A stretch of 64,000 nucleotides of DNA from an uncultured Methanosarcinales archaeon (GTDB lineage: Archaea > Nanobdellota > Nanobdellia > Woesearchaeales > CAYVYK01). The notes under the pieces were generated by a model, which saw only the letters and a list, made by a program, of their open reading frames with translations, was not told the origin of the DNA and searched no databases. This document shows, one piece after another, positions 15,567-47,125 of this stretch (position 1 is the first letter of the stretch; each line of letters opens with the position of its first letter). Both the position numbers and the translations under genes were made by a program. Location of the stretch: assembly GCA_964455675.1 (NCBI GenBank), contig CAYVYK010000007.1:40166-104165 (forward strand). Reading direction: 5' to 3'.

Positions 15567-16307
15567 AGACCTCGAGCTCCAGCGATCCATGAACGCAGGG
15601 ACAAGGTTGTTCAGTTGAGCAAGACGCTTGACAGAAAATAAAGGATCATTCTCCTCATCGCGCTTCTGCACGGGCGGGTGTTCATAATCGACGCTCACAG
15701 ACACGACGCGCCTCCCATCGATGATGGCGTCCAACACAGGCACATGCAGTGAGTCCCAGAGATCACCGTATTTTCCGTCGTATTCCAGAAAGTATCTTGA
15801 TGATTCACGACTCCATGTGCGCGGCCCAAACCACATGTCGAGAGGAACTCCCGTGATCTGATGCCATACTAGGTTACCGAGAAGCTCAGCATACGCTTGA
15901 GCAGTGGGATACGACTGCAGAGATACCCTCGCAGGAACGACAAGGTCTGCGCGACCCTGCACTATGGGAGAAGCAGTACTGGGCAGAAAAGGAACGTATG
16001 AGAATTTCTCTGGTTCTGCCCATGCGATAACTGACCTATGTGTATCATACGCGGCGCGAATACCCTGACGCCGGCCAGCACCCATTCCTTTGTCTTGCTC
16101 CTCAAATACCCGCGCGCCTGCCAAGGAGAAATGGTGCCTTGTATTATCATCTGATGCATCGATCACCACGCACTCAATACCTGATGCCACCGCAGACTGC
16201 ACTGTTTGAATGGCGCACTGATACCTATTCAGGTCAATACTTGCAGAAGAGTATTTTGTGGCAGTTACCAGAACGATTCTCTCTCCGATCGAATCTGCTG
16301 ATTGCAT
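15546..16307 (-). CDS. hypothetical protein, possible nucleotide-sugar transferase-like fold
   Basis: 253 aa ORF. Motif CVVIDASDDNT is weakly GT-A-like. Convergent 21-nt overlap with the Dpm1-like gene. Confidence 0.3.
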   Translation of the reverse strand: MQSADSIGERIVLVTATKYSSASIDLNRYQCAIQTVQSAVASGIECVVIDASDDNTRHHFSLAGARVFEEQDKGMGAGRRQGIRAAYDTHRSVIAWAEPEKFSYVPFLPSTASPIVQGRADLVVPARVSLQSYPTAQAYAELLGNLVWHQITGVPLDMWFGPRTWSRESSRYFLEYDGKYGDLWDSLHVPVLDAIIDGRRVVSVSVDYEHPPVQKRDEENDPLFSVKRLAQLNNLVPAFMDRWSSRSLGKPNS

Positions 16308-16472
16308 TTACCCATAGGGGGAACAAGGGAGATATAAAGTTAACCTTTTTTTCATCATCTGTTAGTAGTAATCCCCCGAACCCGTAATTTTTTAGTCCTG
16401 ATCCTATTCGTAGGATTATGCTCTATAAGGTTTTAATAGTACCATACCACAACCACAGAAAGGTGATTATGC

Positions 16473-17573
16473 TTGATACACATCCCCGTGCTTGAACCAG
16501 ACATTGGCAAAGATGAACAAGAAGAACTCATGGACGTCATACGGACACGGTGGGTCACTGAGGGGCCTAAGACCAAGCTCATGGAGCAGAAGTTTTCGGA
16601 GATGGTTGGAGTCACTCATGCCATTGCGTACGCGAACGGAACACTCGCGCTCTATGCACTCCTCAAAGCGCATGGCATCAAGGAGGGCGATGAAGTCATC
16701 GTGCCGGATCTCACATTCATCGCAACAGCAAATGCAGTCATTCTCGCAGGAGCAACACCAGTCTTTGTGGATGTTCATCCCTACACATATTGTATCATGC
16801 CAGAAGCAATCGAGCGCGCAATCACAGCACGAACGAAAGCGATCATGCCCGTGCACCTCTACATCCAAATGGCAGACATGCCACGAATCATGGACATCGC
16901 GAAGAAGCATGCGCTCATCGTCATCGAAGACGCCGCCCAGGCAATCGGCATGAAGATTGCGGGAAAACATGCTGGAAGCTTCGGGCATTCAGGAATGATC
17001 AGTTTCTATGGCAATAAAACAATAACCACAGGAGAAGGAGGAATCGTCCTCACGAACGATGACGAGATCGCACGATCATGCTATCGCCTCAAAAACCATG
17101 GAAGGGACAGAAAGGGAATTTTTGTCCATGAACATATCGGGTACAATTTTAGCTTTACCGATCTCCAGGCAGCGGTCGCACTTGGCCAGCTCAAAAAGCT
17201 ACCTCAAGAACTTGAACGAAAAAACCAGATACGAGCGTACTATGAACGTAAGCTCCATGGCATCGTCAAATTCGCATCGGTCGATCCACAATGTACACCT
17301 GTGCACTGGCTAACAAACGTACTCGTCGATGACCCAGGAGCACTCGCGCAGCACCTCGAAACCCTTGGAATCCAAACGCGAAGATTCTTCCTCCCACTTC
17401 ATCAGCAGCCATGCTACAAGCATCTGAAGATCAAAAACAAATTTCCAAACGCAGATGCGGCATACGATCACTGTCTCTCGCTCCCTTCGGGAACAAGACT
17501 AAGCCAAAAGGAACTGGACGAAGTGTGCACGGCAATACAAAAGTTCTATGCACGAACCGCCACCAAGAGATGA
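16473..17573 (+). CDS. DegT/DnrJ/EryC1/StrS-family PLP-dependent sugar aminotransferase
   Basis: 366 aa. TTG start with SD aaaggtga. Conserved PLP lysine in SFYGNKTITTGEGG. N-terminal IPVLEPDIGKDEQEEL is typical. Confidence 0.8.
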   Translation: MIHIPVLEPDIGKDEQEELMDVIRTRWVTEGPKTKLMEQKFSEMVGVTHAIAYANGTLALYALLKAHGIKEGDEVIVPDLTFIATANAVILAGATPVFVDVHPYTYCIMPEAIERAITARTKAIMPVHLYIQMADMPRIMDIAKKHALIVIEDAAQAIGMKIAGKHAGSFGHSGMISFYGNKTITTGEGGIVLTNDDEIARSCYRLKNHGRDRKGIFVHEHIGYNFSFTDLQAAVALGQLKKLPQELERKNQIRAYYERKLHGIVKFASVDPQCTPVHWLTNVLVDDPGALAQHLETLGIQTRRFFLPLHQQPCYKHLKIKNKFPNADAAYDHCLSLPSGTRLSQKELDEVCTAIQKFYARTATKR

Positions 17574-19444
17574 TCCTTGGAATATACAATCCTCCAATTG
17601 GGAGAATCTCGTACTTCACTGCGCAAATCCTCAAGGGGCCTACGTACAACGCTCTCTTGATGGGCACTCTCTATAAAACCCAAGAAACGATCATTCCGAA
17701 TAATTTTCCCAATACCATGAGAGACACTCGCGAGAAAGCGGGATCTCTCGTCACTTGACTCAAGAATTATGACGGTGTTTACGTCCTGCGCTTCAAGTAC
17801 ATCTTGATGCTGTGAAAAATTATTTCTCATTGCGAGATACAGGTTATGCAGCTCCAGCCACTTCGTATCAAGCTCAATCGTATGGCCGACACTTTCTGCG
17901 TAGAGTACGTTATGAGCTGCAATCAAGGGCACAAGCCGTCCATCAGGGTACACAAGATCATAACCACGAGAAGGAACATTGTCCCTAACCCAACGCAAGG
18001 CCTCATAGTCATTGTAGGACAAGGAAAAATATTTCTCAGAGTAAGAGAAAAGGAAGAGACTCAGGAAGACACCATACACGACAAGCAGGATGATCAAATG
18101 GAGTCTCCAATGTCGTGCCTCGAGAAACATCCGCGCAGCAAGCACGGATATTACTGGCGAGAGAAGCATGAGATAGTAACTCCCTATCAAAGGGTAGATC
18201 ACAATGTAATCGATACCCATGCCGATTGAAAGCAGAGCGGCTGCAATACATACCAGAACGACCGGCATCATAAAATCAGCGTCCTTTCGAATCCGTGGGA
18301 TACATACTAAGAGGAGAGCAGGAATCAACAATAGGCCATACCTGATAAGATTACGCTCAATCCCACCACCCTCATTCCACTGGTCAACATCGAGCGACAA
18401 AGAACCCTGGTCGTGAGAGACTATGGCCATATAGTTATCACCGTTTTTTACGAGGAATGGAACAAGAAGAATCAGAACACCAAGCAGGACAGCAGCGCCG
18501 TATTGGATAACCTTCCTACTCGCCAATGCTCTCATGCCCACTCCATTTCTCACCCACATCCCAAGATAAGCCATGATCAAGCACACCACCGCGACAGTCG
18601 CCATATAATCATGAATCGCTATCATCGCACTCACTAGTAAACCGACGAAAAACGCAGACGCCCGATCGAACGGGTCATGCATCAGATACACACACGCAAA
18701 GAAAAGCAGGATAACAACAAGGCGCATGCCGTTCGAGTAGAGAAGTATCGTCTCTGTAACACTGAGGAACGCAACAAACCCCGCGCTCCAAAGGGCCCAT
18801 GTCACATTTCGTGACCAGACCAATACCATGCAATACATCACGAGAGGCAGGAGTGCTGCGAGGCAATGTATCAGAACACCAAAAACGAGTTCTGGAGGAA
18901 GATGAAAACCAATAGCAGGGAACGCTGCAAGGTAGCTCATGCCAGGGGGTATGACCTGCGGCCTCTCAATTGAGAAGCCAAGGGATGAAGTGATGGTTCC
19001 ATCGTTGACGAGCCCTGCCATGACGAGCTGCGAAAAGCTCATGTCGCCGGACGATACTGGCGTGCGAACATAGCTTGCCGCATGAAGCAGGAAACCTCCC
19101 AGAACAAGCAGAGCAATCCATTTCAATCCTTGCGGCCTCCTCAGCGTCCTTAACTCCAAAGAGTACTTCCAGAGACAGAACAATGACAAGAGGATCAGAA
19201 TCAGGTACAGAAGCAGAATGATCGGCTGACGAAACGATGCTGCGAGATCAAGCATCAATCCAAGGAAGATGAACAAAGGCAAAGGGAGCACGGCAGCAAG
19301 GAGAAGAACTCTTTCCCAGTGCTTCTGAACGAATCGTTTCCTTACCAGGGGAAGAAGAAACGGAATGAACAGGATGTAGTGAGCAAGCAACACAACCAAT
19401 ATAAGAATACACTGAAGGACCACGCCTACTGCAAAGTTTGTCAT
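17546..19444 (-). CDS. large polytopic membrane protein (more than 12 TM), putative GT-C-type glycosyltransferase or glycan polymerase
   Basis: 632 aa, almost entirely hydrophobic helices. Located in a glycosylation cluster. No recognisable WWDYG motif. Confidence 0.4.
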   Translation of the reverse strand: MTNFAVGVVLQCILILVVLLAHYILFIPFLLPLVRKRFVQKHWERVLLLAAVLPLPLFIFLGLMLDLAASFRQPIILLLYLILILLSLFCLWKYSLELRTLRRPQGLKWIALLVLGGFLLHAASYVRTPVSSGDMSFSQLVMAGLVNDGTITSSLGFSIERPQVIPPGMSYLAAFPAIGFHLPPELVFGVLIHCLAALLPLVMYCMVLVWSRNVTWALWSAGFVAFLSVTETILLYSNGMRLVVILLFFACVYLMHDPFDRASAFFVGLLVSAMIAIHDYMATVAVVCLIMAYLGMWVRNGVGMRALASRKVIQYGAAVLLGVLILLVPFLVKNGDNYMAIVSHDQGSLSLDVDQWNEGGGIERNLIRYGLLLIPALLLVCIPRIRKDADFMMPVVLVCIAAALLSIGMGIDYIVIYPLIGSYYLMLLSPVISVLAARMFLEARHWRLHLIILLVVYGVFLSLFLFSYSEKYFSLSYNDYEALRWVRDNVPSRGYDLVYPDGRLVPLIAAHNVLYAESVGHTIELDTKWLELHNLYLAMRNNFSQHQDVLEAQDVNTVIILESSDERSRFLASVSHGIGKIIRNDRFLGFIESAHQESVVRRPLEDLRSEVRDSPNWRIVYSKDHLLVAVRA

Positions 19445-19477
19445 GCACCAAGGGTTCAGGATTCACTATAAAATCCT

Positions 19478-20662
19478 TTAGGATGAAATGCCCAGCAAAG
19501 CAGATTTTATAGTGGAAAGATCTTCTTTTGACATCTCCGGATTATTCCCGCAATAGAACCCGCAAGCATGAACCACCGAGGCATTGGGCAAAGAACTCCT
19601 ATCCTTCACGTACTTTCGATAGAATGGGTGACTTGCAATGTTTCCGGCAATCACAGGACGAATCTCGACATCCCTTGACTGGAAAGATTCCTTCAAACGC
19701 CTAAATGAAGCATCCGACTTGCATACAAAGGGGTATGCAAAGTTGGATATAATATCCATACGATCGTTCTTCAACGGAAAGATATCCCGATCAGTGCAAC
19801 ACTTCCTGATATACATGAAGTTATCGTGCCGTTTCTTCACGATCTCATCCCAATACGGGAGCTGCACATTACCAATGAAACCGTTGATTTCCGTCGGACG
19901 AGCGTTATACGCAAGATCATAGAAGGTGTACAGAGCGAAGAAGTCATCAATCTTATGTTTGCTCCGAATCCTTTGCTGCGACTCACGACTCAGGTTACGA
20001 TCCCAGCCATGAGCGCGGACGATCACGAGCATTTCGGCGAGGTCTTCATCATCTGTGCACACCATCCCTCCCTCAATCGTTGAGAGATGATGCCCCACAA
20101 AAAAGGAGAACGTTGACGCAACACCAAAATTTCCAAGCAGAGTCCCCTTATATTTCGAACCAAGAGATTCACAGTTGTCCTCGAGCAGAATAATCCCTTG
20201 GTCTTTGCAATACAAAGCAATCTTGTCAATGTCAGAACACAAGCCAAGAACATTAGTCAGGAACAAGGCCTTCAATCCCTTGCCAGCAGATTTTAATGTT
20301 GCACTACTGACATTCAAAGTATCCAATTCGCAGTCGATAAGAACAGGATCCAGGCCGAGCTGAATGACTGGCATTACATTTGTCGCCCAGGTGACACTTG
20401 ATACTCCCACGCGGTCTCCCTTCTTCAGACGACCTAAGTTAAGCAATGCCTGCAGAAGAACAAGGTTTGCCGAACTACCGCTCGATACAAAGACAGAGTA
20501 TTTACGCTGCTGCTTTTGCGCAAACGCTGCTTCAAACTTTTTACACTCGGCGCCCATGCTCAGCTGACCAGCCTTCCTGATGAAGTCACACAAGAGATTC
20601 TTTGTCTCGGATTCATGATAAAATGTAGACTTGATGAGTTTGACTACCATGGGATTCACCAC
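19478..20662 (-). CDS. DegT-family enzyme with His replacing the PLP lysine (ColD/E1-like sugar 3-dehydratase candidate)
   Basis: 394 aa. SSGSSANLVLLQAL, and FFVGHHLSTIEGGMVCTDD where the canonical K is replaced by H, as in ColD and E1. Adjacent to gmd. Confidence 0.65.
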   Translation of the reverse strand: MVNPMVVKLIKSTFYHESETKNLLCDFIRKAGQLSMGAECKKFEAAFAQKQQRKYSVFVSSGSSANLVLLQALLNLGRLKKGDRVGVSSVTWATNVMPVIQLGLDPVLIDCELDTLNVSSATLKSAGKGLKALFLTNVLGLCSDIDKIALYCKDQGIILLEDNCESLGSKYKGTLLGNFGVASTFSFFVGHHLSTIEGGMVCTDDEDLAEMLVIVRAHGWDRNLSRESQQRIRSKHKIDDFFALYTFYDLAYNARPTEINGFIGNVQLPYWDEIVKKRHDNFMYIRKCCTDRDIFPLKNDRMDIISNFAYPFVCKSDASFRRLKESFQSRDVEIRPVIAGNIASHPFYRKYVKDRSSLPNASVVHACGFYCGNNPEMSKEDLSTIKSALLGISS

Positions 20663-27620: not shown

Positions 27621-27724
27621 GATGATCACAAAAAAAAGCGCACCTGGGGGGATTTTCGTAACTTTTCGAACCCCCGACCTACAGCTTAGGAGGCTGCCGC
27701 GCTATTTGCCCTGCCCGAAAGCAT
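27619..27724 (-). tRNA. tRNA-Arg(CCU) candidate with two putative non-canonical introns (D-loop about 19 nt, T-loop about 12 nt)
   Basis: On the minus strand: acceptor GCACCTG/CAGGTGC (7/7 pairs), TA, D stem GCGC..GCGC, anticodon arm GCAGC-CTCCTAA-GCTGT, variable AGGTC, T arm GGGGG-TTCGAA..-CCCCC, discriminator G, then a T8 run. Mature length 75 nt after removing the two insertions. Confidence 0.5.
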
Positions 27725-27814
27725 CCAGGCTGCGCTACAGGTGCACTCTTCCCATGAATTCTTGGAGCTTTTATAAAGTTTGATGTTTTACGAATGAGAT
27801 TGATGAGGGTACTC

Positions 27815-30058
27815 TCAGAATCCAGAAATGTTACCCGTCTGGCTTAAAATTGTTCCGGCAATCAGATTGAACAGTATCATGATCACCCCGGTCGTAATCA
27901 CATAAAAGACCGTACAACGGATCAAGTTTTTTCCTAGCAAATAGCGCTCGCTGATGCGGTCAGGACCGTTATCAATCCCATTCATCAGGATAGTGAGAAT
28001 GTACACGATCTGCACAACATAAATTCCGACAACAATCTGAAAGAAAAATGTGGGAATACCATCACCACCACCAATAAGAGAAGCACTCGCAAACCCCCCA
28101 AAACCTGCGGACGAACCAGAATCGCCGCCAATCTGGCTTATCATCTTTGCCTGATTTGACAAGAGCCCAAGGATGTTTGTGATCATAGACGTGATACCAA
28201 CTACAACTCCAGAGATGATTGGCGTGAGGAAATTAATTTGCGACTGCATGGAGCTCACAACATCCTCAAGAATGTCCTTTAAACGCTCATTCACAAGGTG
28301 GATCTCCTTGATGTAGCGAGAGACATTCATCACAGCCTGCGCAGCAATCGCTGGACCTTTCTTCACACCCTGGACGAGCACCTCCATGGAGCTCTCAATT
28401 AGGTTTGAAGGGAAATACGCAAGCGCACCATTCCTTGAACTGAAGATCGCCTCATGGACACTAAGACCCAGGCGGCGGATATTATTGTCCACAATCGCGA
28501 AGAATCTTCCCGATTCCGTGCCCTGCATGACATCTGATACTCGCCCAAAGGCAATCTCCGCAGGTATGCGGTCACCAAGACGGTTACCGAGCTGGAATAG
28601 GGCGGAGGCAAACTCCTGCTCAAGTTTCTTCGTTTTCTCACGAATATCGATCACGTTCTCCGAACGCATCTTGTAGTACACACCTAAACCCAAGCCAAAC
28701 GCCAGTGTCACGCATAAGCTTAAAAGAGCAGCACCGAGGCCAAACGGACCAACCTTATCGTCACGAGTGGTCTCCTCAAGACCTGCACGGTATTCCAGCA
28801 GGCAGAACTGCTGCTTGCACGCACTGATCTTCTCAAACGCCTGAGCGTTTGCCGCAGAAAATGTGATACCAAAATCAAAATCAGGAGCAACAAGATGGAT
28901 CAGCAAAGGAGAGAGACCAAGCAAGAGCAATATGACGAATACAGCCCAACCAACAGAGGCAGGTGACATCGTCCTCTTCTTCCCAAAAAAGTTGAACTTG
29001 TACTCGCGCTCTTTTACGACAGCAGAGCTCTCCGAGATATCCGTGCTGCCATACCCTGTTGGCCTTGTCGCAAGAATATTCTTTCCCATGTAGAACACAA
29101 CGAGTGGAAGCAGAACGTTATAGAGCATGGCAATATGATACCAGCGAATGCCACCCATAAAACTCACCATGAGCGGAAGCATGACAAGACCAAGGATTGG
29201 CAGTACGACTCCAAGCATGTTCAAGGTGGAAATCGGGGACTTGAGATTATGCGCAAAATGCAGCATCTTCTCGTATGTTTCCTCAAGAATTATCTCAAGA
29301 GACTTGTCAAGCAACGCAAGCCTTCGCTCCTCAGCAGACTCATAGAGCGATGAAATAATGAGATGGAATGACTCTAAAAACTCTGGATTGTCCTTGCGCC
29401 ACGTCTCAAGATAGGTATCAATCGCGTCCTTTACCGTATCATACTTTTGCGCCTCAACGTCCCAGAGAATCTTACGAAAGTCAAGACTTAAGGGCGGAGC
29501 CATGTGTTGAGAGGCAAACTCAATCGCGAGCTCAAGGTTTGAGGTGTGCCGCATATACGTGACAAGATAAAAAATGCAAACAACCATCTGATTGGAAGCC
29601 TTCATCCGCCAACCATTCGCCATATACTCAGGAAGCTTTTGCAGAGGGTAGAGTAGGATTACCGCGAAAAGAAGCGCAAACATGCTAAAGAAGAGCGTCG
29701 TCTTATCTAGGATAAGGGCCGGAATCAAGTATCCGAGAAGCCCTCCGAAGAACGCGATCATGATCGGCGCAAGATACGCAAAACTTATCGCGCCAGAGGG
29801 AGTGATGTCGAGATGACAAATATTGATATTCTCCTGCAATCGCTCCGCCTGCTTTGGATCTGGCTTAATCCCGGCGATCTTCTCGCTCCATGCGCAAAGC
29901 TTCTCATAGATGGAGAGATTCTTTGGCATGAACTCCCGCTTGAAAATCTGATACTCAGAACTGTACACCGGCCTAACCGTCTCCTTCTCACCCGAAAGGT
30001 CCTTCTTTAGCTGAGACTTATACTTTCGAGCAATCTCCTCATACGATGCGTTTGCCAT
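27815..30058 (-). CDS. FlaJ/TadC/PilC-like polytopic membrane platform protein (enlarged)
   Basis: 747 aa. Alternating cytoplasmic helical domains and TM clusters. Immediately downstream of (2-nt gap) the secretion ATPase. Confidence 0.55.
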   Translation of the reverse strand: MANASYEEIARKYKSQLKKDLSGEKETVRPVYSSEYQIFKREFMPKNLSIYEKLCAWSEKIAGIKPDPKQAERLQENINICHLDITPSGAISFAYLAPIMIAFFGGLLGYLIPALILDKTTLFFSMFALLFAVILLYPLQKLPEYMANGWRMKASNQMVVCIFYLVTYMRHTSNLELAIEFASQHMAPPLSLDFRKILWDVEAQKYDTVKDAIDTYLETWRKDNPEFLESFHLIISSLYESAEERRLALLDKSLEIILEETYEKMLHFAHNLKSPISTLNMLGVVLPILGLVMLPLMVSFMGGIRWYHIAMLYNVLLPLVVFYMGKNILATRPTGYGSTDISESSAVVKEREYKFNFFGKKRTMSPASVGWAVFVILLLLGLSPLLIHLVAPDFDFGITFSAANAQAFEKISACKQQFCLLEYRAGLEETTRDDKVGPFGLGAALLSLCVTLAFGLGLGVYYKMRSENVIDIREKTKKLEQEFASALFQLGNRLGDRIPAEIAFGRVSDVMQGTESGRFFAIVDNNIRRLGLSVHEAIFSSRNGALAYFPSNLIESSMEVLVQGVKKGPAIAAQAVMNVSRYIKEIHLVNERLKDILEDVVSSMQSQINFLTPIISGVVVGITSMITNILGLLSNQAKMISQIGGDSGSSAGFGGFASASLIGGGDGIPTFFFQIVVGIYVVQIVYILTILMNGIDNGPDRISERYLLGKNLIRCTVFYVITTGVIMILFNLIAGTILSQTGNISGF

Positions 30059-30060
30059 AT

Positions 30061-32343
30061 CTATTGTGACTCAGTCATCCGAATCTTCTTAACCTGGCGC
30101 GAAAACCAAGAGTCCCACTCTTCATAGATGCGACGGGAGTCAAGAGCGCCAACCTCCTCCCTCACTTGGTCCGAGATGCGGTGGAACTGATCATTTGCCT
30201 GCACGATAAACGCGGCCTCCATTAACTCAGGCATGTTCGTTGAATCTGCAACTTCCACTATCCGCTGCTTCATGTTCGCGCGAAGCATGATATTATCCCA
30301 CACCGCATCCCACTTCCCTGCCCATTCCCGAACGTTACCCGCGATCGACTTGAGGATGTCACTTTCGCCCTGGATGAAATCCTTCGTAGGCTCAAGCTTG
30401 TCAATCAGGGGATTGTACTTCATAAGGTCACCAAAGCCACCCTCACGAAGAGGATCATCCACCCAGAACTTTCGCACCTCGGTAACCTGCGTGACCCGAC
30501 GGAAACGATGCATGCCATCGGCACTCTTGATCGGATTTGCGACAATGATAATATCAGTCGCCTTGAAACTCGTGCGGGGAACCTTAAGATCATTCACAAC
30601 ACGATCGAATACACCATAGGGCGAATCACCGTGGATCGTACCCGCAACAACGTTCGCAAGCGCGCCAACACGCATCGCTTCATAGAGAGCAGTAGCCTCT
30701 TTGCTGCGAACCTCGCCAACGATAAGGCAAGAATCACCAAGGCGCAAGGTCGTGCGAATCCCGGTCTCGGCGTCAACCTCAGACGTTGCAGCACCGATAG
30801 CGGAACTCACCTTCATGGGCTGAATGTTATAGCCGAGCGCGCGCATCGAGCCAACAGGAAGCTCAAGCGTGTCCTCAATCGTGATGATACGATACTTGCG
30901 CATAATCTCAATCAAGAGCGCGCTCAATAAAGAGCTCTTACCCGCAGAGCGAGTACCTGCAACAAGCATCGTCCTTGAGCCGTCAATAAGGAAACTCATC
31001 AGCCCTGCGGAAAGTGGGGAGATCATTCCCTGCTTGATGAACAAAGGAAGCGTCCAAGGACGGTCACGATGACGCCTGAAAGCATACGCTAGACCTGAGG
31101 GGTTGAGCGGGGGAGAGATGACTGCGATACGCGCCTTTGATCCAGGAAGCTCAAGTTCAGTGTCAAGAATGGGATTTGCCTCATCCAAGGGGCGGCCAGA
31201 GATCAAACGCAGCTTTGTCGCCCATGAATCGGACTCGTTTGGCGTCGGATAAATGTTGGTGCGACAATCCTCAAAATCCTGATGAACGATAAATATGGGA
31301 ATCTGGCCCATGGGAGAATTAATCGTAATATCCTGAACCTTTTCGTCCTGTAGTAGTACCTCAACAAGCCCAAAACCAATCGTGTACCGTACAAGAATCT
31401 GCGTCAACTCATCCCAATCCTTTTCCTTTAGATGCACGCCCTTGAAGTCAGATAGCTCGCCAAGAAGGTCACGACCAACATTTGAGAACACCTGACGCAT
31501 ACGTTCAGGATCGATAAATTCGGCTCGCTTTGGCTTATGATCGGCAAGGATGTTTCGTGCCATATCAAGAAGCTCATACTTATCTTCACTTAAGCGAAAC
31601 TCTGGAGGCATCATGTGATAGAGGTACTGTACCGTCTCTGGAATACTGAAGATGGTCACTTCAGTCGAACCAACCTCATAGCTCTCAAGCTCCTCACCGT
31701 CAGATGGATAGTTCGCCATGAGCTTTGTGTACATGAAGTCAGGCTTAATCGTCGGCGCAAACAATTTCCGATAGATCTCGCGATCCCCGATGTGATAGTC
31801 AGAGAGATACGGCTTAGCCATAATGACAAGCTTTGTCTTGTCCAGCATGAGAAGAATGTAATTCAGCAGTTTCACCCAACGCTCCAAATGCTCCTTTCGC
31901 GATTTTTGCTCCTCGACCTCATAGTTGATCTTCACATGACGGTAGATCCGCTTGAGCTCGACGTACGCAGAAATCGGATCTCCCTTCAACCTACTGAACA
32001 CGATGTGCTGCAGCTGAGTGTATGTGGAGCTATCCTTTGATAGCCCCCGCATCTGGAATGAGAGAAGCCGCTGCCTCACAATATTTGCGTAGATACGCGC
32101 GATCTCAGCGACCATCTGCGTCTGATCATAATCATACTCAAAGTCTCGCTTCTGAGCAAACACGATTTTTGTCGCGGCACCAGCCTCCGCGAGAATCTCC
32201 ACCGTCTTTGACATACATAAGGAGTCGTCCTCAAGCGATGGAGTCTTCGTGTACGCCTCAAGGTCGATGCGAAGAATGATCTCCTGCCCTTCGCGGACCA
32301 CTTCATACTCAAAAGGCTTCTTACTTGACGTGGTCCCTGCCAT
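30061..32343 (-). CDS. type II/IV secretion-system ATPase (FlaI/TadA/VirB11/GspE family), enlarged N-terminal region
   Basis: 760 aa. Walker A LVAGTRSAGKSSLLSAL at about aa 450, Asp box, Walker B IIVGEVR, His-box-like region. Confidence 0.85.
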   Translation of the reverse strand: MAGTTSSKKPFEYEVVREGQEIILRIDLEAYTKTPSLEDDSLCMSKTVEILAEAGAATKIVFAQKRDFEYDYDQTQMVAEIARIYANIVRQRLLSFQMRGLSKDSSTYTQLQHIVFSRLKGDPISAYVELKRIYRHVKINYEVEEQKSRKEHLERWVKLLNYILLMLDKTKLVIMAKPYLSDYHIGDREIYRKLFAPTIKPDFMYTKLMANYPSDGEELESYEVGSTEVTIFSIPETVQYLYHMMPPEFRLSEDKYELLDMARNILADHKPKRAEFIDPERMRQVFSNVGRDLLGELSDFKGVHLKEKDWDELTQILVRYTIGFGLVEVLLQDEKVQDITINSPMGQIPIFIVHQDFEDCRTNIYPTPNESDSWATKLRLISGRPLDEANPILDTELELPGSKARIAVISPPLNPSGLAYAFRRHRDRPWTLPLFIKQGMISPLSAGLMSFLIDGSRTMLVAGTRSAGKSSLLSALLIEIMRKYRIITIEDTLELPVGSMRALGYNIQPMKVSSAIGAATSEVDAETGIRTTLRLGDSCLIVGEVRSKEATALYEAMRVGALANVVAGTIHGDSPYGVFDRVVNDLKVPRTSFKATDIIIVANPIKSADGMHRFRRVTQVTEVRKFWVDDPLREGGFGDLMKYNPLIDKLEPTKDFIQGESDILKSIAGNVREWAGKWDAVWDNIMLRANMKQRIVEVADSTNMPELMEAAFIVQANDQFHRISDQVREEVGALDSRRIYEEWDSWFSRQVKKIRMTESQ

Positions 32344-32497
32344 GCTTCACCTCTTTTCTTCGCTGTTCCCTGTACTGCTCAAGGGCCACTTCAATCAAGT
32401 GCGACTTATTCCGAAATTCCCGAGAATTCTTAGCGCTCTCCTCAATCCAACGGACAAGGCCTTCATCAATCGTCGCGGAAATAACCTTCTTGGGCAT
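32321..32497 (-). CDS. ribbon-helix-helix (CopG/Arc/MetJ-like) DNA-binding protein
   Basis: 58 aa (MPKKVISATIDEGLVRWIEESAKNSREFRNKSHLIEVALEQYREQRRKEVKHGRDHVK); beta-strand then two helices. Overlaps the ATPase start by 23 nt. Below the 60-aa track cut-off. Confidence 0.6.
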   Translation of the reverse strand: MPKKVISATIDEGLVRWIEESAKNSREFRNKSHLIEVALEQYREQRRKEVKHGRDHVK

Positions 32498-32520
32498 CCC
32501 GCTTCTCCACAGTGCAGTGG

Positions 32521-32530
32521 ATTTATAATA
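32521..32530 (-). promoter_or_regulatory. TATA box (minus-strand tattataaat) 24 nt upstream of the RHH gene, within a 140-bp AT-rich repeat-rich intergenic region
   Basis: Read directly. Region 32521-32637 is about 80% AT with tatat/attgta repeats. Confidence 0.4.
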
Positions 32531-32637
32531 GTTTCTATTAGTAAATATTATATACTATATTTTATATTGTATTGTATATCTTATAATAGTCTCATTTGGA
32601 TAGTGAGTTTATAGGCATACCATTGGATGGAATTATA

Positions 32638-33462
32638 TTAGATGGAACCATAATACTGCTGCATAAGCAACGCGTCCCCTTCAATACTCGGGGACTCGGA
32701 AATAACGATGCCTTTCACACGATAGGTTCTCAGAACGCGCAACAGATCCTTCCATTCCAAGTCACTTTCTTCTAGGTTCAGATGATAGCGCTCACCTTTC
32801 TCAGAGTACTCAATACCGGAAACGTGGATGTGCATATTGTCTAGCCCGCCACGACCAAGGTAGCGCTCAATCGTCTCCAGAACCACGCAAAACTCCTTTT
32901 CAGAATTATATTTCCCCTCACGCGCATGAATATGCGAAAAATCAACGCAGGGCATCACCTGCTCCACTTCAGAACTCAAACGGCACAGCTCGATAAACGA
33001 CCCAAACTGAGATGCCTTGCCCGTCGTCTCAGGCCGCACCATTATGGGAATCGAACGATCACGAAGTATGCCCACGATGGAACGCAGACGCTGCTTGACT
33101 GCATCATACACGAGCGCTGGATCACGCTTTTGGTAAAACGCAGCGTGAAAACACATACTCACTGCGCCACACTCATATGCCCGAGCGGCGGCATCAACCA
33201 CCCTTTGCATGCTCGCAGAAGTGATTTTCGGATCAAGAGAAAAAAGATTGATAAAATACTGGCCGTGACACGTGAGCATCAAGTCATGCTGGCGCGCTAG
33301 AGTACACACGAGCGGAGCTTTGCTCGCGGAAATATTGATTGACCGCACAAACTCCAATTCCATTCCGCCAAGCCCAAGTTCAGATAGGCGCGCAAACGCA
33401 TTCTCAAGCGAGCGCGGAACTGTGGATAGCGGAGCACCAGCAGTACCAAAGCGTAGCATCAT
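32638..33462 (-). CDS. nfo: endonuclease IV (AP endonuclease family 2)
   Basis: 274 aa. TIM-barrel AP-endonuclease-2 signatures (CFHAAFY, HIHAREG and DNMHIHVSGIEYSEKGE metal-binding His/Glu clusters). Confidence 0.8.
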   Translation of the reverse strand: MMLRFGTAGAPLSTVPRSLENAFARLSELGLGGMELEFVRSINISASKAPLVCTLARQHDLMLTCHGQYFINLFSLDPKITSASMQRVVDAAARAYECGAVSMCFHAAFYQKRDPALVYDAVKQRLRSIVGILRDRSIPIMVRPETTGKASQFGSFIELCRLSSEVEQVMPCVDFSHIHAREGKYNSEKEFCVVLETIERYLGRGGLDNMHIHVSGIEYSEKGERYHLNLEESDLEWKDLLRVLRTYRVKGIVISESPSIEGDALLMQQYYGSI

Positions 33463-35244: not shown

Positions 35245-36570
35245 ATGTATGAGATTGTTGTGGGGCGGAGCGATAGCGATAAAAAACAGTACGGAATGGC
35301 CGGCACGATACTTCTAGGTAAACATTATGTCAAGATGGGCCAGACAACATCACTCTCAAACGAAGTCTACATGGATGTAACGAGAAGCCATATTGTCTTT
35401 GTCTGCGGAAAACGCGGCGGGGGAAAGAGCTACACCATGGGAGTGATTGCAGAAGGCATGTCAAACCTCCCTGACAGCATCTCCCACAACATTGCCATCG
35501 TCATGCTTGACACGATGGGAATCTACTGGACAATGAAATTCCCGAACATGCGGGATGAAGAACTCCTTAAAGAGTGGGGGCTCAAACCCCAAGCCCTTGG
35601 CATCAACATATATACACCGGCAGGATACTACTCGATCTACAAAAAGAAGGGCATTCCAACCGACAAACCATTCTCGATCATACCATCAGAACTCTCGCCG
35701 ATGGAGTGGATGATGACATTCAATGTTGACATATCGACACCCCTCGGTGTTGCTATAGAGAAAGTTGTCATGAAACTCAAGGATGAGCGCGAAAAGTTCT
35801 CCATCAAGGATATCATCATGGAACTGCGCAAAGATGAGGAGATCGATGCGGCAACAAAGCTATCCGCAATCAACCGATTTAAAAGTGCGGAGCGATGGGG
35901 GCTATTCTCAGATGAAGGAACACCACTAGCCGACCTCGTGCGCGGAGGCCAGGTCACAGTACTTGATGTCAGCTGCTATGCAACAATACCTGGCACTGAA
36001 GGTATTAAGGCACTCGTCATCGGGCTCGTCGCACAAAAACTATTCATCCAGCGCATGATAGCGCGAAAGAACGAAGAATTCCAACAAATCCATCAATCCA
36101 TGAACTTCCTCTCTGAGGACGCTGACAGCACGAAAGAAATACCTCTCGTCTGGCTAATCATCGATGAGGCACACGAGTTCCTACCAAGGGAAGGCAAGAA
36201 CGCGTCAACTGACCCACTTATCACCATACTGCGGGAAGGTCGACAGCCAGGAATATCACTCATATTAGCCACACAGCAACCTGCAAAAATCCACACCGAT
36301 GTTATGACCCAGAGCGACATCGTCATCAGCCACAGGCTCACAGCAAAAGTTGACACGGACAGTCTTGGGCTTCTCATGCAAAGCTACATGCGCGAAGGCC
36401 TTGACACTCAGCTGTCAAATCTTCCAAGCTCCAGCGGATCGGCGCTCATATTTGACGACAACAATGAGCGAGTGTACCCCATGCGGATCAGACCAAGATT
36501 CACGTGGCACGGAGGATCAGCACCAACAGCGATCCCAGAGAAGAAAGAGATTTTCGAAAACCAAATCTAG
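35245..36570 (+). CDS. HerA-like (DUF87) P-loop ATPase, orphan (no NurA/Mre11/Rad50 nearby)
   Basis: 441 aa. N-terminal HAS-barrel-like region, Walker A VCGKRGGGKSYTMG, Walker B LIIDEAHEFLP (DEAH), LILATQQPAKI...SHRLTAKVD matching the HerA/FtsK C-terminal motifs. Confidence 0.7.
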   Translation: MYEIVVGRSDSDKKQYGMAGTILLGKHYVKMGQTTSLSNEVYMDVTRSHIVFVCGKRGGGKSYTMGVIAEGMSNLPDSISHNIAIVMLDTMGIYWTMKFPNMRDEELLKEWGLKPQALGINIYTPAGYYSIYKKKGIPTDKPFSIIPSELSPMEWMMTFNVDISTPLGVAIEKVVMKLKDEREKFSIKDIIMELRKDEEIDAATKLSAINRFKSAERWGLFSDEGTPLADLVRGGQVTVLDVSCYATIPGTEGIKALVIGLVAQKLFIQRMIARKNEEFQQIHQSMNFLSEDADSTKEIPLVWLIIDEAHEFLPREGKNASTDPLITILREGRQPGISLILATQQPAKIHTDVMTQSDIVISHRLTAKVDTDSLGLLMQSYMREGLDTQLSNLPSSSGSALIFDDNNERVYPMRIRPRFTWHGGSAPTAIPEKKEIFENQI

Positions 36571-36579
36571 AATGATCAT

Positions 36580-38037
36580 ATGACAAAGACATTCAGCCCC
36601 CGAACGGTCTACGCGCTCGTATTCCTGAGCCATTTTACCATGATTACGCTCGAGATCGCAGGATTTCGGCTGCTTGGCCACACGTTCGGCGTCTCACTCT
36701 ACTCGTGGGGCGCCATGATCGGGATTATCATGGTCGCGATGGGCATTGGAAGCCTCCTTGGGGGGTGGCTTGCAGACCGGAACAATGGCAGAGAATGGCT
36801 TGCAACACTTAGCCTCCTATCGGGAATTCTCCTCTCCTTTACCGTGATCGGCCATGACTATATCCTCGCTGTGGTCTCAAACCTAGCGACTATCGAGGGA
36901 GTGCTCTTATCCAGCCTCATTTTATTCTTCCCTCCAGTCGTACCGCTCGCGATGATTCCACCGCTCGTGATCAAACGACAAGCAAAGAGCGCACAACTTG
37001 GCTACAGCGCGGGCAGCGTATGGAGCCTTGCAACATGCGGCGATCTCTTTGGCATCCTCATCTCGGTATTATACCTCATCCCACACTTTGGAAGCCGCGC
37101 AGTGCTATATCTCTGCTTTGTCATCATCCTCGCATTTGGCGTTGTGGGCATGATGAAATCACACAAGGCGTACATCATCGCGCTTCTGCTCCTCCTCCTT
37201 CCACTTATCTTCACAACACCATCACTTCCGGGGATCGTCTACGAGAATGAATCGTTTTACAATTACATCTATGTGCAGAATGTCAACGGATATCTCCATC
37301 TCAAACTTAACCAAGCAGACCTCGTGCACTCAAGGCTGCCAACTCCTGCAACAGAATACATGGCAGGTGGATACACGGACCATGTACTCGTCAGCAGGTA
37401 TTACCATAACAGACCAAGCAATGTTCTGTTCCTCGGATCTGGAGCAGGCAATATGATCATCCAGTGGCAGCATTACTTCCCGGACGACCGGATCACTGGT
37501 GTGGAAATCGATCCAAAAGTCGTGCACGTTGCGCGGTCGATCTTCAACGTAACGGAGAATGAGAAAACCATCATGGTGGTTGATGATGGGAGGCCATTCC
37601 TCCATCGCTCGAATGAGGTTTACGACATTATCATCATTGACGTCTATCAAGGCAGCGCGTATGCCCCATTCTACATGATGACCAAGGAATTCTTCGCAGA
37701 TGTCTCGCGGCATCTCACGTCTGACGGCGTCCTCGTCATCAACGTCTTTGACTTGGGCGAAGGGGAACTTGCTGACGCAGTCGCAAACAGCGTTCAGCCA
37801 TCATTTGCATCAGTCCACATCGTGCAGGCAGGTAACCGGATCCTCTTTGCGACAAAACTACCCTCAGAACCACAAGACATTGGGGAATCAATACCGCCCG
37901 ATTATCCGATCGACACCAATTACGCGCAGATGTATACATTCTCGGCGAGCCCGTCCATTCCCACATTCACGGATGACGACTCCAACATTGAAGCGTTGAC
38001 GTACCGAATGCTCAAGAAGTACCGCAATGCCAGGTAG
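36580..38037 (+). CDS. spermidine synthase-like (aminopropyltransferase fold) protein fused to N-terminal 7-8 TM domain
   Basis: 485 aa. C-terminal VLFLGSGAGNM...GVEIDPKVV...IIIDVY Rossmann-type methyltransferase/PABS motifs after a polytopic N-terminus. Confidence 0.75.
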   Translation: MTKTFSPRTVYALVFLSHFTMITLEIAGFRLLGHTFGVSLYSWGAMIGIIMVAMGIGSLLGGWLADRNNGREWLATLSLLSGILLSFTVIGHDYILAVVSNLATIEGVLLSSLILFFPPVVPLAMIPPLVIKRQAKSAQLGYSAGSVWSLATCGDLFGILISVLYLIPHFGSRAVLYLCFVIILAFGVVGMMKSHKAYIIALLLLLLPLIFTTPSLPGIVYENESFYNYIYVQNVNGYLHLKLNQADLVHSRLPTPATEYMAGGYTDHVLVSRYYHNRPSNVLFLGSGAGNMIIQWQHYFPDDRITGVEIDPKVVHVARSIFNVTENEKTIMVVDDGRPFLHRSNEVYDIIIIDVYQGSAYAPFYMMTKEFFADVSRHLTSDGVLVINVFDLGEGELADAVANSVQPSFASVHIVQAGNRILFATKLPSEPQDIGESIPPDYPIDTNYAQMYTFSASPSIPTFTDDDSNIEALTYRMLKKYRNAR

Positions 38038-45848: not shown

Positions 45849-47123
45849 GTGTTCCGAGGAAGACGAGGCCAGGAAGGAACCAGTGGAAAGACAGCCAGCC
45901 TCATCGCCATCATACTCGCGTGTATTATCCTCTACATTCTCTTCCTTCCGCCGGACGAAAGGGAGGAGCTTCTCAAGGAGAACACGACGGATAGTGATGA
46001 TGACGATGACATTAGGTACAAGAGCGAGCAGATACTCCTGCGCGAATACATTGGATCTCTAGAATACTTCAACCAGAGGGTGTGCGACTATGATGACACA
46101 AATAGGTATTGCGAGCATCCCGTTCCGAATATCAATCTGTTTGAGACCAGGTCAGCAATCGAGCTAGGAAAAATGAACGCTGTTTATGTGAAAAGCGGAA
46201 CATTCGAGAAAGAACACAAAACCATGACATTTGCCATCGAGGACCTTGAGAAGACAAGCAACGTCCAACTCAGCTTTGTTGCAGAACAGCGGGAAGGCCG
46301 ACTCGTCATCAAGCTCAACGAAGAGGTAATATTCGAGAATGAGATTGACAAAAGCAATCCAGAACCTATTGCGCTACCGGATGACTTGCTCCAGACCACG
46401 AACAAGCTCGAATTTGCAGTATCAGGAGTTGGAGGAGCCTTCTGGGACACGAACGAATACCTGCTATCCAATCTCAAGGTCATAGGAGAAGTGCAAAACA
46501 ACGACCGCCAAACAGGAACGTACTCATTCTCCATAAATCCAACTGAAAATGAAAACCTCGAGCGTGCATGGCTTGAGTTCTACCCTGTCTGCAATCCACG
46601 AAACGTTGGAGTGCTCTACGGCTATGTGAATGGCAATCGCGTGTTTAGCGCAGTACCAGAGTGCGAAGTACGCAACAAGCAGGAGATCAGGATCGGATAC
46701 CTTGACTCAGGAAGCAACGACATCAGTTTCACGACAGAAAAAGGATCATACCTCATTGAAAAGATACAAGTCCTGACGGAGATTAAGGAAGTAGACAAGG
46801 CAACGTTCTACTTCGAACTAAACTCAACGGAATATGACAATGTACTCGACGGAGAGCGACAGGTCAATATCACATTCTTTTTTGTTCATGACGATGACTA
46901 TGTTGATGATATCGAATTCAAGCTCAACGTGAACGGCCACCTCGCATACATCGACAACAGGTATCTTGAAGGCCGCAGCCGAAACGGAGAGAGGATAACA
47001 CGAGGGTATTACTCACGAATCATCGATGAATGGGTAGAAGAAGGAAACAACTACATCCAAATCGAACCCAAAAGCACACTCGAGATCAAAGAAATGCGAG
47101 TCTCTATCTATGATGTCGATTAA
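45849..47123 (+). CDS. N-terminally membrane-anchored extracellular protein, hypothetical (operon gene 1)
   Basis: 424 aa. GTG start with SD aggtga. TM helix ASLIAIILACIILYILF, then acidic DSDDDDD linker and an about 380-aa extracellular domain. TATA tttatata at 45795-45802. Confidence 0.5.
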   Translation: MFRGRRGQEGTSGKTASLIAIILACIILYILFLPPDEREELLKENTTDSDDDDDIRYKSEQILLREYIGSLEYFNQRVCDYDDTNRYCEHPVPNINLFETRSAIELGKMNAVYVKSGTFEKEHKTMTFAIEDLEKTSNVQLSFVAEQREGRLVIKLNEEVIFENEIDKSNPEPIALPDDLLQTTNKLEFAVSGVGGAFWDTNEYLLSNLKVIGEVQNNDRQTGTYSFSINPTENENLERAWLEFYPVCNPRNVGVLYGYVNGNRVFSAVPECEVRNKQEIRIGYLDSGSNDISFTTEKGSYLIEKIQVLTEIKEVDKATFYFELNSTEYDNVLDGERQVNITFFFVHDDDYVDDIEFKLNVNGHLAYIDNRYLEGRSRNGERITRGYYSRIIDEWVEEGNNYIQIEPKSTLEIKEMRVSIYDVD

Positions 47124-47125
47124 CC

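What the first reader, a model, noticed from the sequence alone, without database searches (positions are those of the whole stretch)
27815..32530. RHH regulator translationally coupled to an enlarged FlaI-like ATPase and enlarged FlaJ/TadC-like platform, with no pilin genes in the neighbourhood
A 58-aa ribbon-helix-helix ORF (missed by the 60-aa cut-off) overlaps the start of a 760-aa secretion ATPase by 23 nt; the Walker A of that ATPase sits at about aa 450, so about 180 aa are extra compared with FlaI. A 747-aa polytopic membrane protein follows 2 nt later. A TATA element lies 24 nt upstream of the RHH gene inside a repeat-rich AT island. No class III signal-peptide (pilin/archaellin) genes flank it; instead a tRNA and endonuclease IV do. 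This may be a minimal two-component filament or secretion motor under direct RHH control, possibly serving distant substrates such as the 45849-52281 operon.
Basis: partly seen in the sequence, partly recalled or inferred. Interest (0 to 1): 0.6.

Follow-up and report, generated by a model that had tools for sequence, protein, structure and literature searches.

The report
DPANN pilus-type motor with own repressor
Three tightly packed genes in this Woesearchaeota-type (DPANN) archaeal window encode a small DNA-binding repressor, an enlarged pilus-assembly-type ATPase and an enlarged, so far unannotated membrane platform; the trio is conserved in hundreds of related species and most likely builds a surface filament whose subunits are encoded elsewhere.

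Summary
On the minus strand lie a 58-aa CopG-like RHH gene (32321-32497), a 760-aa secretion-type (T2SSE) ATPase (30061-32343, 23-nt overlap) and a 747-aa polytopic membrane protein (27815-30058, 2-nt gap).

The trio is conserved at 55-77% identity in at least 581 species-level genomes of Woesearchaeota/Nanoarchaeia. The platform family also reaches Aenigmatarchaeota. Flanking genes differ between genomes. No relative turned up in viral contigs.

New here is a 16-bp palindrome plus 8-mer repeats (TATTATAA) that sit almost only upstream of the RHH gene (78 of 81 sites in 1.2 Mb). That points to autorepression. In one relative the same element precedes a pilin-like gene fused into the operon.

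No convincing pilin gene lies within about 20 kb. One candidate sits 23 kb away.

Verdict: a lineage-specific variant of a type IV pilus-like assembly motor. The filament function is inferred, not shown.

The parts
32523..32613 (-). Promoter/operator region of the operon, inside the 140-nt AT-rich spacer 32498-32637. A possible distal TATA (TATAAA) lies at 32608-32613.
   Evidence: 28% GC. Repeats and inverted repeats. The 8-mers TATTATAA/ATAATATA are 30-50x enriched upstream of RHH orthologues compared with other intergenic DNA of the same loci.
32581..32590 (-). Repeat copy 1, ACTATTATAA (predicted RHH half-site).
   Evidence: One of only two exact copies in 64 kb. One-mismatch hits elsewhere are close to the chance level (6 found, 1.6 expected). 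D2 family, 58-nt spacing.
32545..32565 (-). Central palindrome-like element ATAAAATATAGTATATAATAT. It is the window's copy of the conserved operator ATAAAATATATTTTATAATAT (2 mismatches).
   Evidence: The only site in the window at 4 or fewer mismatches. Matched with 2 mismatches. In related loci, 78 of 81 sites lie within 200 nt upstream of the RHH start.
32523..32532 (-). Repeat copy 2, ACTATTATAA.
   Evidence: Whether it acts as a TATA box or an operator half-site cannot be resolved from sequence.
32321..32497 (-). 58-aa CopG-like ribbon-helix-helix protein, the predicted autorepressor. Its C-terminal tail overlaps the ATPase start by 23 nt.
   Evidence: RHH_1 E 1.2e-3. 23 of 26 orthologues hit RHH_1. 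CopG alignment. An orthologue sits upstream of the ATPase in 49 of 82 loci by tblastn.
30061..32343 (-). 760-aa T2SSE-family ATPase. It has a family-specific N-terminal module (about 1-200: beta/alpha domain plus helical bundle), a GspE/FlaI-like N-terminal domain and RecA-like core (about 297-650), and a C-terminal helical tail (662-759).
27815..30058 (-). 747-aa polytopic platform protein of the PilC/GspF/FlaJ/TadC type. It has two cytoplasmic helical-bundle domains (about 141-281 and 463-613), 8-9 transmembrane helices, a variable extracellular insert (391-441) and a Gly-rich loop (636-668).

Best explanation
The locus is an operon encoding the cytoplasmic-membrane core of a DPANN-specific type IV pilus-like (type IV filament) machine together with its own repressor.

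Shown:
- The gene order is RHH, then ATPase, then platform, with overlapping or abutting reading frames.
- The ATPase has intact Walker A, Asp-box, Walker B and His-box motifs and a GspE/FlaI-like fold.
- The membrane protein contains PilC/GspF-type cytoplasmic bundles.
- The trio is conserved in hundreds of Woesearchaeota/Nanoarchaeia species amid changing flanks.
- A palindromic AT-rich element is almost exclusive to the region upstream of the RHH gene.

Inferred:
- The ATPase forms a hexamer that docks on the two conserved cytoplasmic domains of the platform. It uses ATP hydrolysis to drive membrane-embedded subunits with class III signal peptides into a surface filament.
- The subunit genes and the prepilin peptidase lie elsewhere in the genome, as is common in archaea.
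- The family-specific N-terminal module of the ATPase is a docking or regulatory domain, by analogy with the N-terminal domains of GspE and MshE.
- The RHH dimer binds the TATT(A/T)TA(A/T) repeats and the 16-bp palindrome between promoter and start codon and so represses its own operon.
- In host-dependent DPANN cells the likely role of the filament is attachment to other cells.
For: ATPase:
- T2SSE 50.4 bits.
- Best solved relatives are afGspE (E 9e-30), CpaF and FlaI.
- Catalytic motifs are intact.

Platform:
- AF2 model with pLDDT 76 and pTM 0.74.
- Foldseek probability 0.97-1.0 for the OutF/EpsF/PilC domains, and the PilC model 3jc8_Ca is the top hit.
- 23 of 43 distant family members hit Pfam T2SSF, best E 3.2e-10.
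- The two cytoplasmic domains are the most conserved parts, at 68-70% identity.

Conservation:
- ATPase 63-77% and platform 53-76% identical over full length.
- At least 581 GTDB species genomes carry a relative.
- The ATPase lies directly upstream of the platform gene in 75 of 82 loci, and an RHH orthologue is found in 49 of 82.
- Flanking genes differ between genomes.

Operator:
- 78 of 81 matches to ATAAAATATATTTTATAATAT (3 or fewer mismatches) in 1.2 Mb lie within 200 nt upstream of the RHH start, in 39 of 50 loci.
- The palindrome most often starts 48 nt after a TTTAAATA box.
- The 8-mers are 30-50x enriched.

Link to pilins:
- In L074 the only off-target operator sites sit directly before a gene starting MRKKG|QIQSNVIMYALFMIVAAMILLF. 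That gene, with a 667-aa secreted protein, is fused in frame order to RHH-ATPase-platform.
- In L038 another class III-like gene adjoins the extended cluster.

Literature: pilin genes scattered away from ATPase/TadC operons are normal in archaea (PMC4858521).
Against: - No class III signal-peptide gene and no GxGD-type peptidase motif were found near the locus. No GxGD motif occurs anywhere in the 64-kb window.
- Across 82 loci, class III-like genes are sporadic (16 hits) and never a conserved neighbour.
- The pilin link rests on one operon (L074) plus one adjacency (L038).
- The window protein's own T2SSF score is below threshold (13.3 against 25.2 bits).
- The internal duplication is only weakly visible (hhalign P 0.029).
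- The RHH score is just under the Pfam cut-off.
- DNA binding, repression, operon structure and filament formation are all untested.
- The N-terminal ATPase module has no recognisable relative.
- The exact 21-mer also occurs in unrelated AT-rich metagenome DNA (103 of 120 hits).
Confidence: 0.6

Rival explanations
1. The pair is the archaellum motor (FlaI/FlaJ), and the organism swims with it.
Against: The FlaI equivalog scores 122.4 bits against a 550 cut-off. By sequence the ATPase is closer to afGspE (9e-30) and CpaF (1e-22) than to FlaI (2e-17). No flaH, flaF/G or archaellin genes adjoin it in the window or in 82 loci. The closest non-DPANN relative is a haloarchaeal non-archaellum pair, 40% identical over the core.
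Confidence: 0.05
2. The ATPase-platform pair has left filament assembly. It works as a pilin-independent translocator or cell-contact device specific to DPANN symbionts, for example exporting proteins or moving DNA or lipids at the host interface.
For: Cognate pilins are not linked. PMC4858521 could not identify cognate pilins for 'nanoarchaeal' ATPases of a halobacterial clade. Conservation is unusually high, and inteins sit in the Asp box of some orthologues. The added ATPase module and the extracellular insert are lineage-specific. In many relatives, conserved neighbours of unknown function (three membrane paralogues and two coiled-coil proteins) take the place where pilins would be expected.
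Against: No T2SSE/T2SSF pair is known to me to work without pilin-like substrates. Two relatives have class III-like genes in or beside the cluster. Scattered pilin genes are the rule in archaea.
Confidence: 0.2
3. The trio belongs to a mobile element: an RHH-regulated, VirB11-like conjugation or partition module.
For: RHH plus a VirB11-family ATPase recalls plasmid transfer regions. There are weak NCBIfam hits to TrbB and VirB11. The closest haloarchaeal relative is on a megaplasmid.
Against: The trio is present with high identity in at least 581 species genomes, next to housekeeping genes such as tRNA, endonuclease IV-like, GatE-like and glycyl-tRNA synthetase-like genes. No relative occurs in 2.9 million viral contigs. 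Only two distant plasmid hits were found, both non-mobilizable. No integrase or relaxase lies nearby.
Confidence: 0.03
4. The RHH gene is an unrelated small regulator or antitoxin that merely sits upstream. It does not control the motor genes.
For: 12 of 26 orthologues also hit the ParD antitoxin RHH model. In several relatives, 100-400 nt separate the RHH gene from the ATPase gene.
Against: Orthologous RHH genes precede the ATPase across the order while other neighbours change. Frames overlap or abut in many genomes. No toxin gene follows. The operator sits upstream of the RHH gene, which is the first gene of the cluster.
Confidence: 0.07

Closest known systems
Archaeal GspE-type secretion ATPase (Archaeoglobus fulgidus afGspE, PDB 2OAP)
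   Different: Only 20% identical. The window protein has about 192 extra N-terminal and about 40 extra C-terminal residues with no detectable relatives.
Archaellum motor FlaI/FlaJ (ArlI/ArlJ)
   Different: Fails the FlaI equivalog model (122 against 550 bits). No FlaH, FlaF/G or archaellins adjacent. The platform has no FlaJ/T2SSF Pfam hit above threshold, and both proteins are about 200 aa larger.
Haloarchaeal ATPase/'secretion system protein' pair (Haloterrigena turkmenica pHTUR04, WP_012945992/WP_012945991). Possibly subclade 4F of Makarova et al. 2016; this was not tested.
   Same: Closest non-DPANN relative found. The ATPase core is 40% identical (E 6e-66) and the platform is 25% identical over residues 123-359. 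Its platform also lacks any Pfam hit, and no pilins are annotated beside it. PMC4858521 notes that this clade's ATPase occurs in nanoarchaea without identifiable pilins.
   Different: Shorter proteins (648 and 604 aa). The N-terminal regions do not align. No RHH gene upstream; DUF7311 and DUF7382 proteins sit there instead.
Bacterial PilB/PilC, GspE/GspF and Tad CpaF/TadB-TadC cores
   Different: Bacterial platforms are about 300-400 aa with three transmembrane helices per repeat (from my own knowledge of these families, not tested here). This one has 747 aa, 8-9 helices, an N-terminal cytoplasmic region and an extracellular beta-containing insert.
CopG/Arc/MetJ ribbon-helix-helix repressors
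   Same: Length, beta-alpha-alpha pattern and Pfam RHH_1 hits. Full-length alignment to CopG. Repeated and palindromic 8-mers upstream, as for RHH operators.
   Different: Scores are marginal, and no binding data exist. To my knowledge and in the searched library, no RHH dedicated to a type IV pilus-like motor has been described.

Membership tests
T2SSE / secretion ATPase superfamily (Pfam PF00437) | Score above the Pfam gathering threshold | tested here: met
   50.4 bits against 24.9. All 43 orthologues hit.
T2SSE / secretion ATPase superfamily (Pfam PF00437) | Walker A, Asp box, Walker B with catalytic Glu, and His box | tested here: met
   GTRSAGKS at 463-470, IEDT at 489, GEVR at 543, TIHG at 569. 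These positions are invariant in 43 sequences.
T2SSE / secretion ATPase superfamily (Pfam PF00437) | Two-domain fold (N-terminal domain plus RecA-like C-terminal domain) of GspE/FlaI/PilB | tested here: met
FlaI/ArlI archaellum ATPase (NCBIfam NF058587 equivalog) | Score at or above the equivalog cut-off | tested here: not met
   122.4 bits against 550.
FlaI/ArlI archaellum ATPase (NCBIfam NF058587 equivalog) | Operon with flaH, flaJ, flaF/G and archaellin genes | tested here: not met
   None of these lie next to the pair in the window or recur among the neighbours in 82 loci.
T2SSF platform proteins (PilC/GspF/TadB-C/FlaJ; Pfam PF00482) | Score above the Pfam gathering threshold | tested here: inconclusive
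   The window protein scores 13.3 bits against 25.2 (E 0.081, residues 165-295). Yet 23 of 43 distant family members hit T2SSF, best E 3.2e-10.
T2SSF platform proteins (PilC/GspF/TadB-C/FlaJ; Pfam PF00482) | Cytoplasmic helical-bundle domain of the GspF/PilC fold | tested here: met
T2SSF platform proteins (PilC/GspF/TadB-C/FlaJ; Pfam PF00482) | Internal duplication: two bundle-plus-transmembrane repeats | tested here: inconclusive
   Two K/R-rich loops at 140-281 and 461-613, each followed by transmembrane helices. hhalign of repeat 1 against repeat 2 gives P 0.029 in the expected register. A weak EpsF sequence match falls in the second repeat.
T2SSF platform proteins (PilC/GspF/TadB-C/FlaJ; Pfam PF00482) | Encoded next to its T2SSE ATPase | tested here: met
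   2-nt gap in the window. The ATPase is directly upstream in 75 of 82 loci.
CopG-type ribbon-helix-helix repressors (Pfam PF01402) | Score above the Pfam gathering threshold, and the beta-alpha-alpha pattern | tested here: inconclusive
   19.2 bits against 20.5. 23 of 26 orthologues hit at E up to 0.1, best 6e-4. CopG aligns over 1-47 with E 0.12.
CopG-type ribbon-helix-helix repressors (Pfam PF01402) | Binds repeated or palindromic operator sites at its own promoter | not testable with these tools
   A candidate operator was found. Binding needs EMSA or footprinting.
Complete type IV filament system | Class III signal-peptide subunits and a GxGD prepilin peptidase in the genome | tested here: inconclusive
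   None near the locus, and no peptidase motif in the 64 kb. One class III-like homologue lies at 55313-58858. The rest of the genome is not available.

The most novel reading that the evidence does not exclude
The RHH-ATPase-platform trio, with the coiled-coil and membrane neighbours seen in many relatives, could be a DPANN-wide and near-essential cell-contact machine that has diverged from pilus assembly. It would then be the energising core of the structure through which these reduced symbionts attach to, or exchange material with, their hosts. The newly defined operator would give a direct handle on its regulon.
Probability: 0.15. Interest if true: 0.8.

Novelty: new variant of a known kind. 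Interest (0 to 1): 0.5.

Why it matters
DPANN archaea depend on contact with other cells, yet the machinery of that contact is largely unknown.

- This work gives a fold-level identity to a 700+-aa membrane protein family that public records call 'hypothetical' and that has no precomputed Pfam domain. The family has thousands of members.
- It shows that this protein and an enlarged ATPase form one of the best-conserved gene pairs of Woesearchaeota-type genomes.
- It defines a candidate repressor-operator pair. That makes the regulon, and therefore the missing filament subunits, searchable by motif in complete genomes and testable by simple DNA-binding assays.
- It warns that KEGG- or JGI-style 'flaI' calls in these lineages should not be read as evidence of swimming motility.

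Tried and rejected
- ARAGORN (also with -i and relaxed scores) and Rfam, at gathering and at E up to 10, found no tRNA beside the locus. Only in-silico removal of two insertions recovered tRNA-Arg.
- Direct searches of the membrane protein gave nothing usable: Pfam, NCBIfam and PDB sequence searches, and a family profile against PDB sequences (only a weak EpsF hit, E 1.3).
- The afdb50 fold library was unavailable.
- Looking for further operator sites in the window as a regulon test found none beyond the RHH promoter.
- Scanning metagenomes for the exact 21-mer gave 17 of 120 hits upstream of RHH orthologues.
- A homology search with the first 250 aa of the 55313 ORF returned nothing.
- The look-up of encoding contigs could not locate the window's own ATPase, so the 109.6-kb source contig could not be extended.
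- Archaellum identity was rejected on the FlaI cut-off and on context.
- A mobile-element origin was rejected on distribution, housekeeping flanks and absence from viral contigs.
- The 45849-52281 operon showed no pilin-like evidence.
Full report
**1. What is in the sequence**

The minus strand between 27815 and 32497 carries three reading frames exactly as described:
- a 58-aa ORF at 32321-32497;
- a 760-aa ORF at 30061-32343, whose ATG lies 23 nt before the stop of the small ORF;
- a 747-aa ORF at 27815-30058, starting 2 nt after the stop of the second.

The 140-nt spacer upstream (32498-32637) is 28% GC, against about 48% for the window.

The upstream gene (32638-33462) has an AP_endonuc_2 TIM barrel (E 5e-26).

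However, 27638-27746(-) has a 7-bp acceptor stem. ARAGORN calls it tRNA-Arg(CCT) as soon as a 16-20-nt D-loop insertion and a 12-15-nt T-loop insertion are removed in silico. It is therefore a tRNA gene with two non-canonical introns.

**2. The three proteins**

The small protein
- It matches Pfam RHH_1 over its whole domain at 19.2 bits, just under the 20.5 cut-off.
- 23 of 26 orthologues match RHH_1.
- A family profile aligns end to end with the CopG repressor at a weak E of 0.12.
- The invariant ISAT strand and the RN(K/R)SHxxE helix fit an RHH DNA-binding protein.

The ATPase
- It is a T2SSE-family enzyme (50.4 bits).
- Walker A is at 463-470, the Asp box at 489, GEVR at 543 and TIHG at 569.
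- Its best solved relatives are archaeal GspE (E 9e-30), CpaF (1e-22) and FlaI (2e-17).
- The alignments start at residue 297-318 of the query but at 105-121 of the targets. About 190-197 N-terminal residues are therefore extra, plus about 40 at the C-terminus.
- The extra N-terminal part is predicted with confidence (pLDDT 85-92) as a small beta/alpha domain (12-90) plus a helical bundle (105-182).
- It is kept in all orthologues (lengths 751-777) at 42-49% identity, against 70-78% for the core.
- The protein is not FlaI in the strict sense: the NCBIfam equivalog scores 122 bits against a cut-off of 550.

The membrane protein
- It has no family hit above threshold and no solved sequence relative.
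- In Foldseek the PilC model of the pilus machine is the top hit. The OutF, EpsF and PilC domains reach probability 0.97-1.0.
- A profile search of 1.8 billion representatives found 1244 clusters. Of 43 diverse full-length members, 23 hit Pfam T2SSF, best E 3.2e-10. The window protein itself reaches only E 0.081 at 165-295.
- Hydropathy shows 8-9 transmembrane helices and two large basic loops at 140-281 and 461-613. These loops are the best-conserved parts (68-70%). An outside loop (391-441) and a Gly-rich loop (636-668) vary freely.
- The two halves align weakly in the expected register (hhalign P 0.029).

I conclude that it is a divergent, enlarged PilC/GspF/FlaJ/TadC-type platform.

**3. 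Distribution and context**

- The ATPase has thousands of full-length relatives at 63-77% identity. Those that carry a source name are mostly labelled Woesearchaeota, Nanoarchaeota or Nanoarchaeia.
- The platform has 3578 relatives. Every one that carries a source name is called 'hypothetical protein', and none has a precomputed Pfam domain.
- More distant members come from Aenigmatarchaeota and from a MAG labelled Nanohaloarchaeota.
- In 82 fetched loci the ATPase gene lies directly upstream of the platform gene in 75. The exceptions sit at contig ends. An RHH orthologue is found by tblastn upstream of the ATPase in 49.
- Flanking genes differ between genomes.
- A subset of loci shares further neighbours:
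  - a divergent coiled-coil protein of about 150 aa (34 loci);
  - a protein of about 215 aa (30 loci);
  - three tandem membrane paralogues of about 190 aa (28 loci);
  - a downstream OB-fold protein (46 loci).
- None of these neighbours is detectable anywhere in the present window, and Pfam says nothing useful about them.
- Some orthologous ATPases carry an intein of about 495 aa in the Asp box.
- The platform has no relative in 2.9 million viral contigs.
- Among 72,556 plasmids only two Haloterrigena megaplasmids match. There an ATPase of 648 aa (40% identical over the core) precedes a 604-aa 'secretion system protein' that also lacks Pfam hits.
- Makarova et al. 2016 (PMC4858521) describe a halobacterial T4P subclade (4F) with a coiled-coil accessory protein. 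[quoted passage not shown] That is probably an early sighting of this family. I could not test the subclade assignment.

**4. The regulatory element (new here)**

- The window's spacer contains two exact copies of ACTATTATAA, at 32581-32590 and 32523-32532. They are the only exact copies in 64 kb. They flank ATAAAATATAGTATATAATAT at 32545-32565.
- Upstream regions of RHH orthologues are strongly enriched (30-50x over other intergenic DNA of the same loci) in TATTATAA, ATAATATA and AAAATATA.
- They share a consensus ATAAAATATATTTTATAATAT, whose first 16 bases are a perfect palindrome.
- With up to 3 mismatches this 21-mer occurs 81 times in 1.2 Mb of related loci. Of these, 78 lie within 200 nt upstream of the RHH start, in 39 of 50 loci.
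- In typical loci a TTTAAATA box is followed after 15 nt by TATTATAA. The palindrome most often starts 48 nt after the box and usually ends 0-20 nt before the ATG.
- Operator sites downstream of the TATA box are how many archaeal repressors act. I therefore infer autorepression by the RHH protein.
A second candidate TATA (TATAAA, 32608-32613) lies upstream of all three sites. A GGAG 11 nt before the ATG hints at a leadered transcript. Sequence alone cannot decide which box is used.

**5. Where are the substrates?**

- A FlaFind-like rule finds no convincing class III signal within about 20 kb of the locus.
- No GxGD-type peptidase motif occurs in the window.
- In the 82 loci only 16 class III-like ORFs appear, and none is a conserved neighbour.

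Two cases are telling.
- In L074 the only operator sites that are not in front of an RHH gene sit directly before a gene starting MRKKG|QIQSNVIMYALFMIVAAMILLF. It is followed by a 667-aa secreted protein, then RHH (4-nt overlap), the ATPase and the platform. The promoter-operator has been kept and a pilin-like gene has been placed first in the operon.
- In L038 a gene starting MQKRG|QLTIIFIAG adjoins the extended cluster.

In the window itself, the 1181-aa ORF 55313-58858 is homologous to that L038 family and to L048 (E 1e-8 and 9e-5). Its N-terminus RQS|QISIFLLVVIVVMIG aligns with RKG|QISFFVIAGIV. It follows two KaiC-family ATPase genes. It is the best candidate substrate in the window, although its cleavage motif is degenerate.

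By eye, three of its products start with lipobox-like N-termini.

**6. Interpretation**

The most likely reading (confidence about 0.6) is a lineage-specific type IV pilus-like assembly core under its own RHH repressor, with subunits and peptidase encoded elsewhere.

The main rival (about 0.2) is that the pair has been redeployed as a pilin-independent contact or translocation device of DPANN cells. The absence of linked pilins, the extra conserved neighbours and the unusual conservation keep that reading alive.

Archaellum identity, a mobile-element origin and an incidental RHH gene are each unlikely.

**7. Novelty and score**

The core logic (T2SSE ATPase plus T2SSF platform) is well known. 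Generic 'flaI' calls in Woesearchaeota are in the literature (PMC5994134, PMC11606122).

I could not find the following described anywhere:
- the fold-level identification of the 'hypothetical' platform family;
- the conserved N-terminal ATPase module;
- the dedicated RHH gene and its operator.

I rate this a new variant of a known kind, interest 0.5.

Noticed in passing
window 27638-27746 (-): A tRNA-Arg(CCT) gene with two non-canonical insertions: about 16-20 nt in the D-loop and about 12-15 nt in the T-loop. ARAGORN (with and without -i) and Rfam both miss it. ARAGORN calls it once the two segments are removed in silico.
   Followed up: yes
window 5099-6166 (+), within the GC-rich stretch 3000-6000: A bona fide PilT/PilU-family ATPase (TIGR01420, 380.8 bits against a 319.1 cut-off) in a stretch of 53-59% GC, against about 48% elsewhere. 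Makarova et al. 2016 state that archaea lack the PilT family. This may be a bacterial acquisition or an assembly or binning artefact.
   Followed up: partly
window 53775-58858 (+): Two overlapping KaiC-family ATPase genes (53775-54551 and 54548-55237) precede a 1181-aa protein. Its N-terminus (RQS|QISIFLLVVIVVMIG) aligns with class III-like Woesearchaeal proteins (L038, L048). This is a possible pilin-like substrate cluster 23 kb from the motor.
   Followed up: partly
L074 4640-10000: The conserved operator sits in front of a class III-like gene (4689-5537, MRKKG|QIQSN...). That gene, with a 667-aa secreted protein carrying TSP3-like repeats, is fused upstream of RHH-ATPase-platform with overlapping frames.
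   Followed up: yes
P0056, P0087, P0105; loci L010 and L019: Orthologous ATPases of about 1255 aa carry a LAGLIDADG intein of about 495 aa, inserted in the Asp box (IITIED|TLELP, window residue about 491).
   Followed up: partly
L001 4857-7775; L006, L038, L074 and about 30 other loci: An extended conserved neighbourhood occurs in many relatives but is not detectable in this window. It comprises three tandem membrane paralogues of about 190 aa (motif LPFLLVFTIVFAILEKT), a protein of about 215 aa with a small N-terminal domain plus coiled coil, and a divergent coiled-coil protein of about 150 aa that shares the operator-bearing spacer. An OB-fold gene lies downstream in 46 loci.
   Followed up: partly
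L203 (Haloterrigena turkmenica pHTUR04, record 16292-20557): The closest non-DPANN relative of the pair. It is preceded by DUF7311 and DUF7382 proteins. Its platform is annotated only as 'secretion system protein' and also has no Pfam hit.
   Followed up: partly
window 45849-52281 (+): A five-gene operon with no informative Pfam or NCBIfam match. The first product has an unusual N-terminus (MFRGRRGQEGTSGKTASLIAIILACIILYILF). The products at 49095 and 50161 are paralogues (27% identity). By eye, those two and the 51337 product start with lipobox-like signals.
   Followed up: partly
window 32506-32521: A perfect 5-bp-stem palindrome (TCCACAGTGCAGTGGA) lies between the proximal repeat and the RHH start codon. 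I did not check whether it is conserved in relatives.
   Followed up: no
window 35245-38037 (+): A HerA/DUF87-type ATPase (441 aa) is followed directly by a fused MFS/spermidine synthase-like membrane protein (485 aa). The pairing is unexplained.
   Followed up: no
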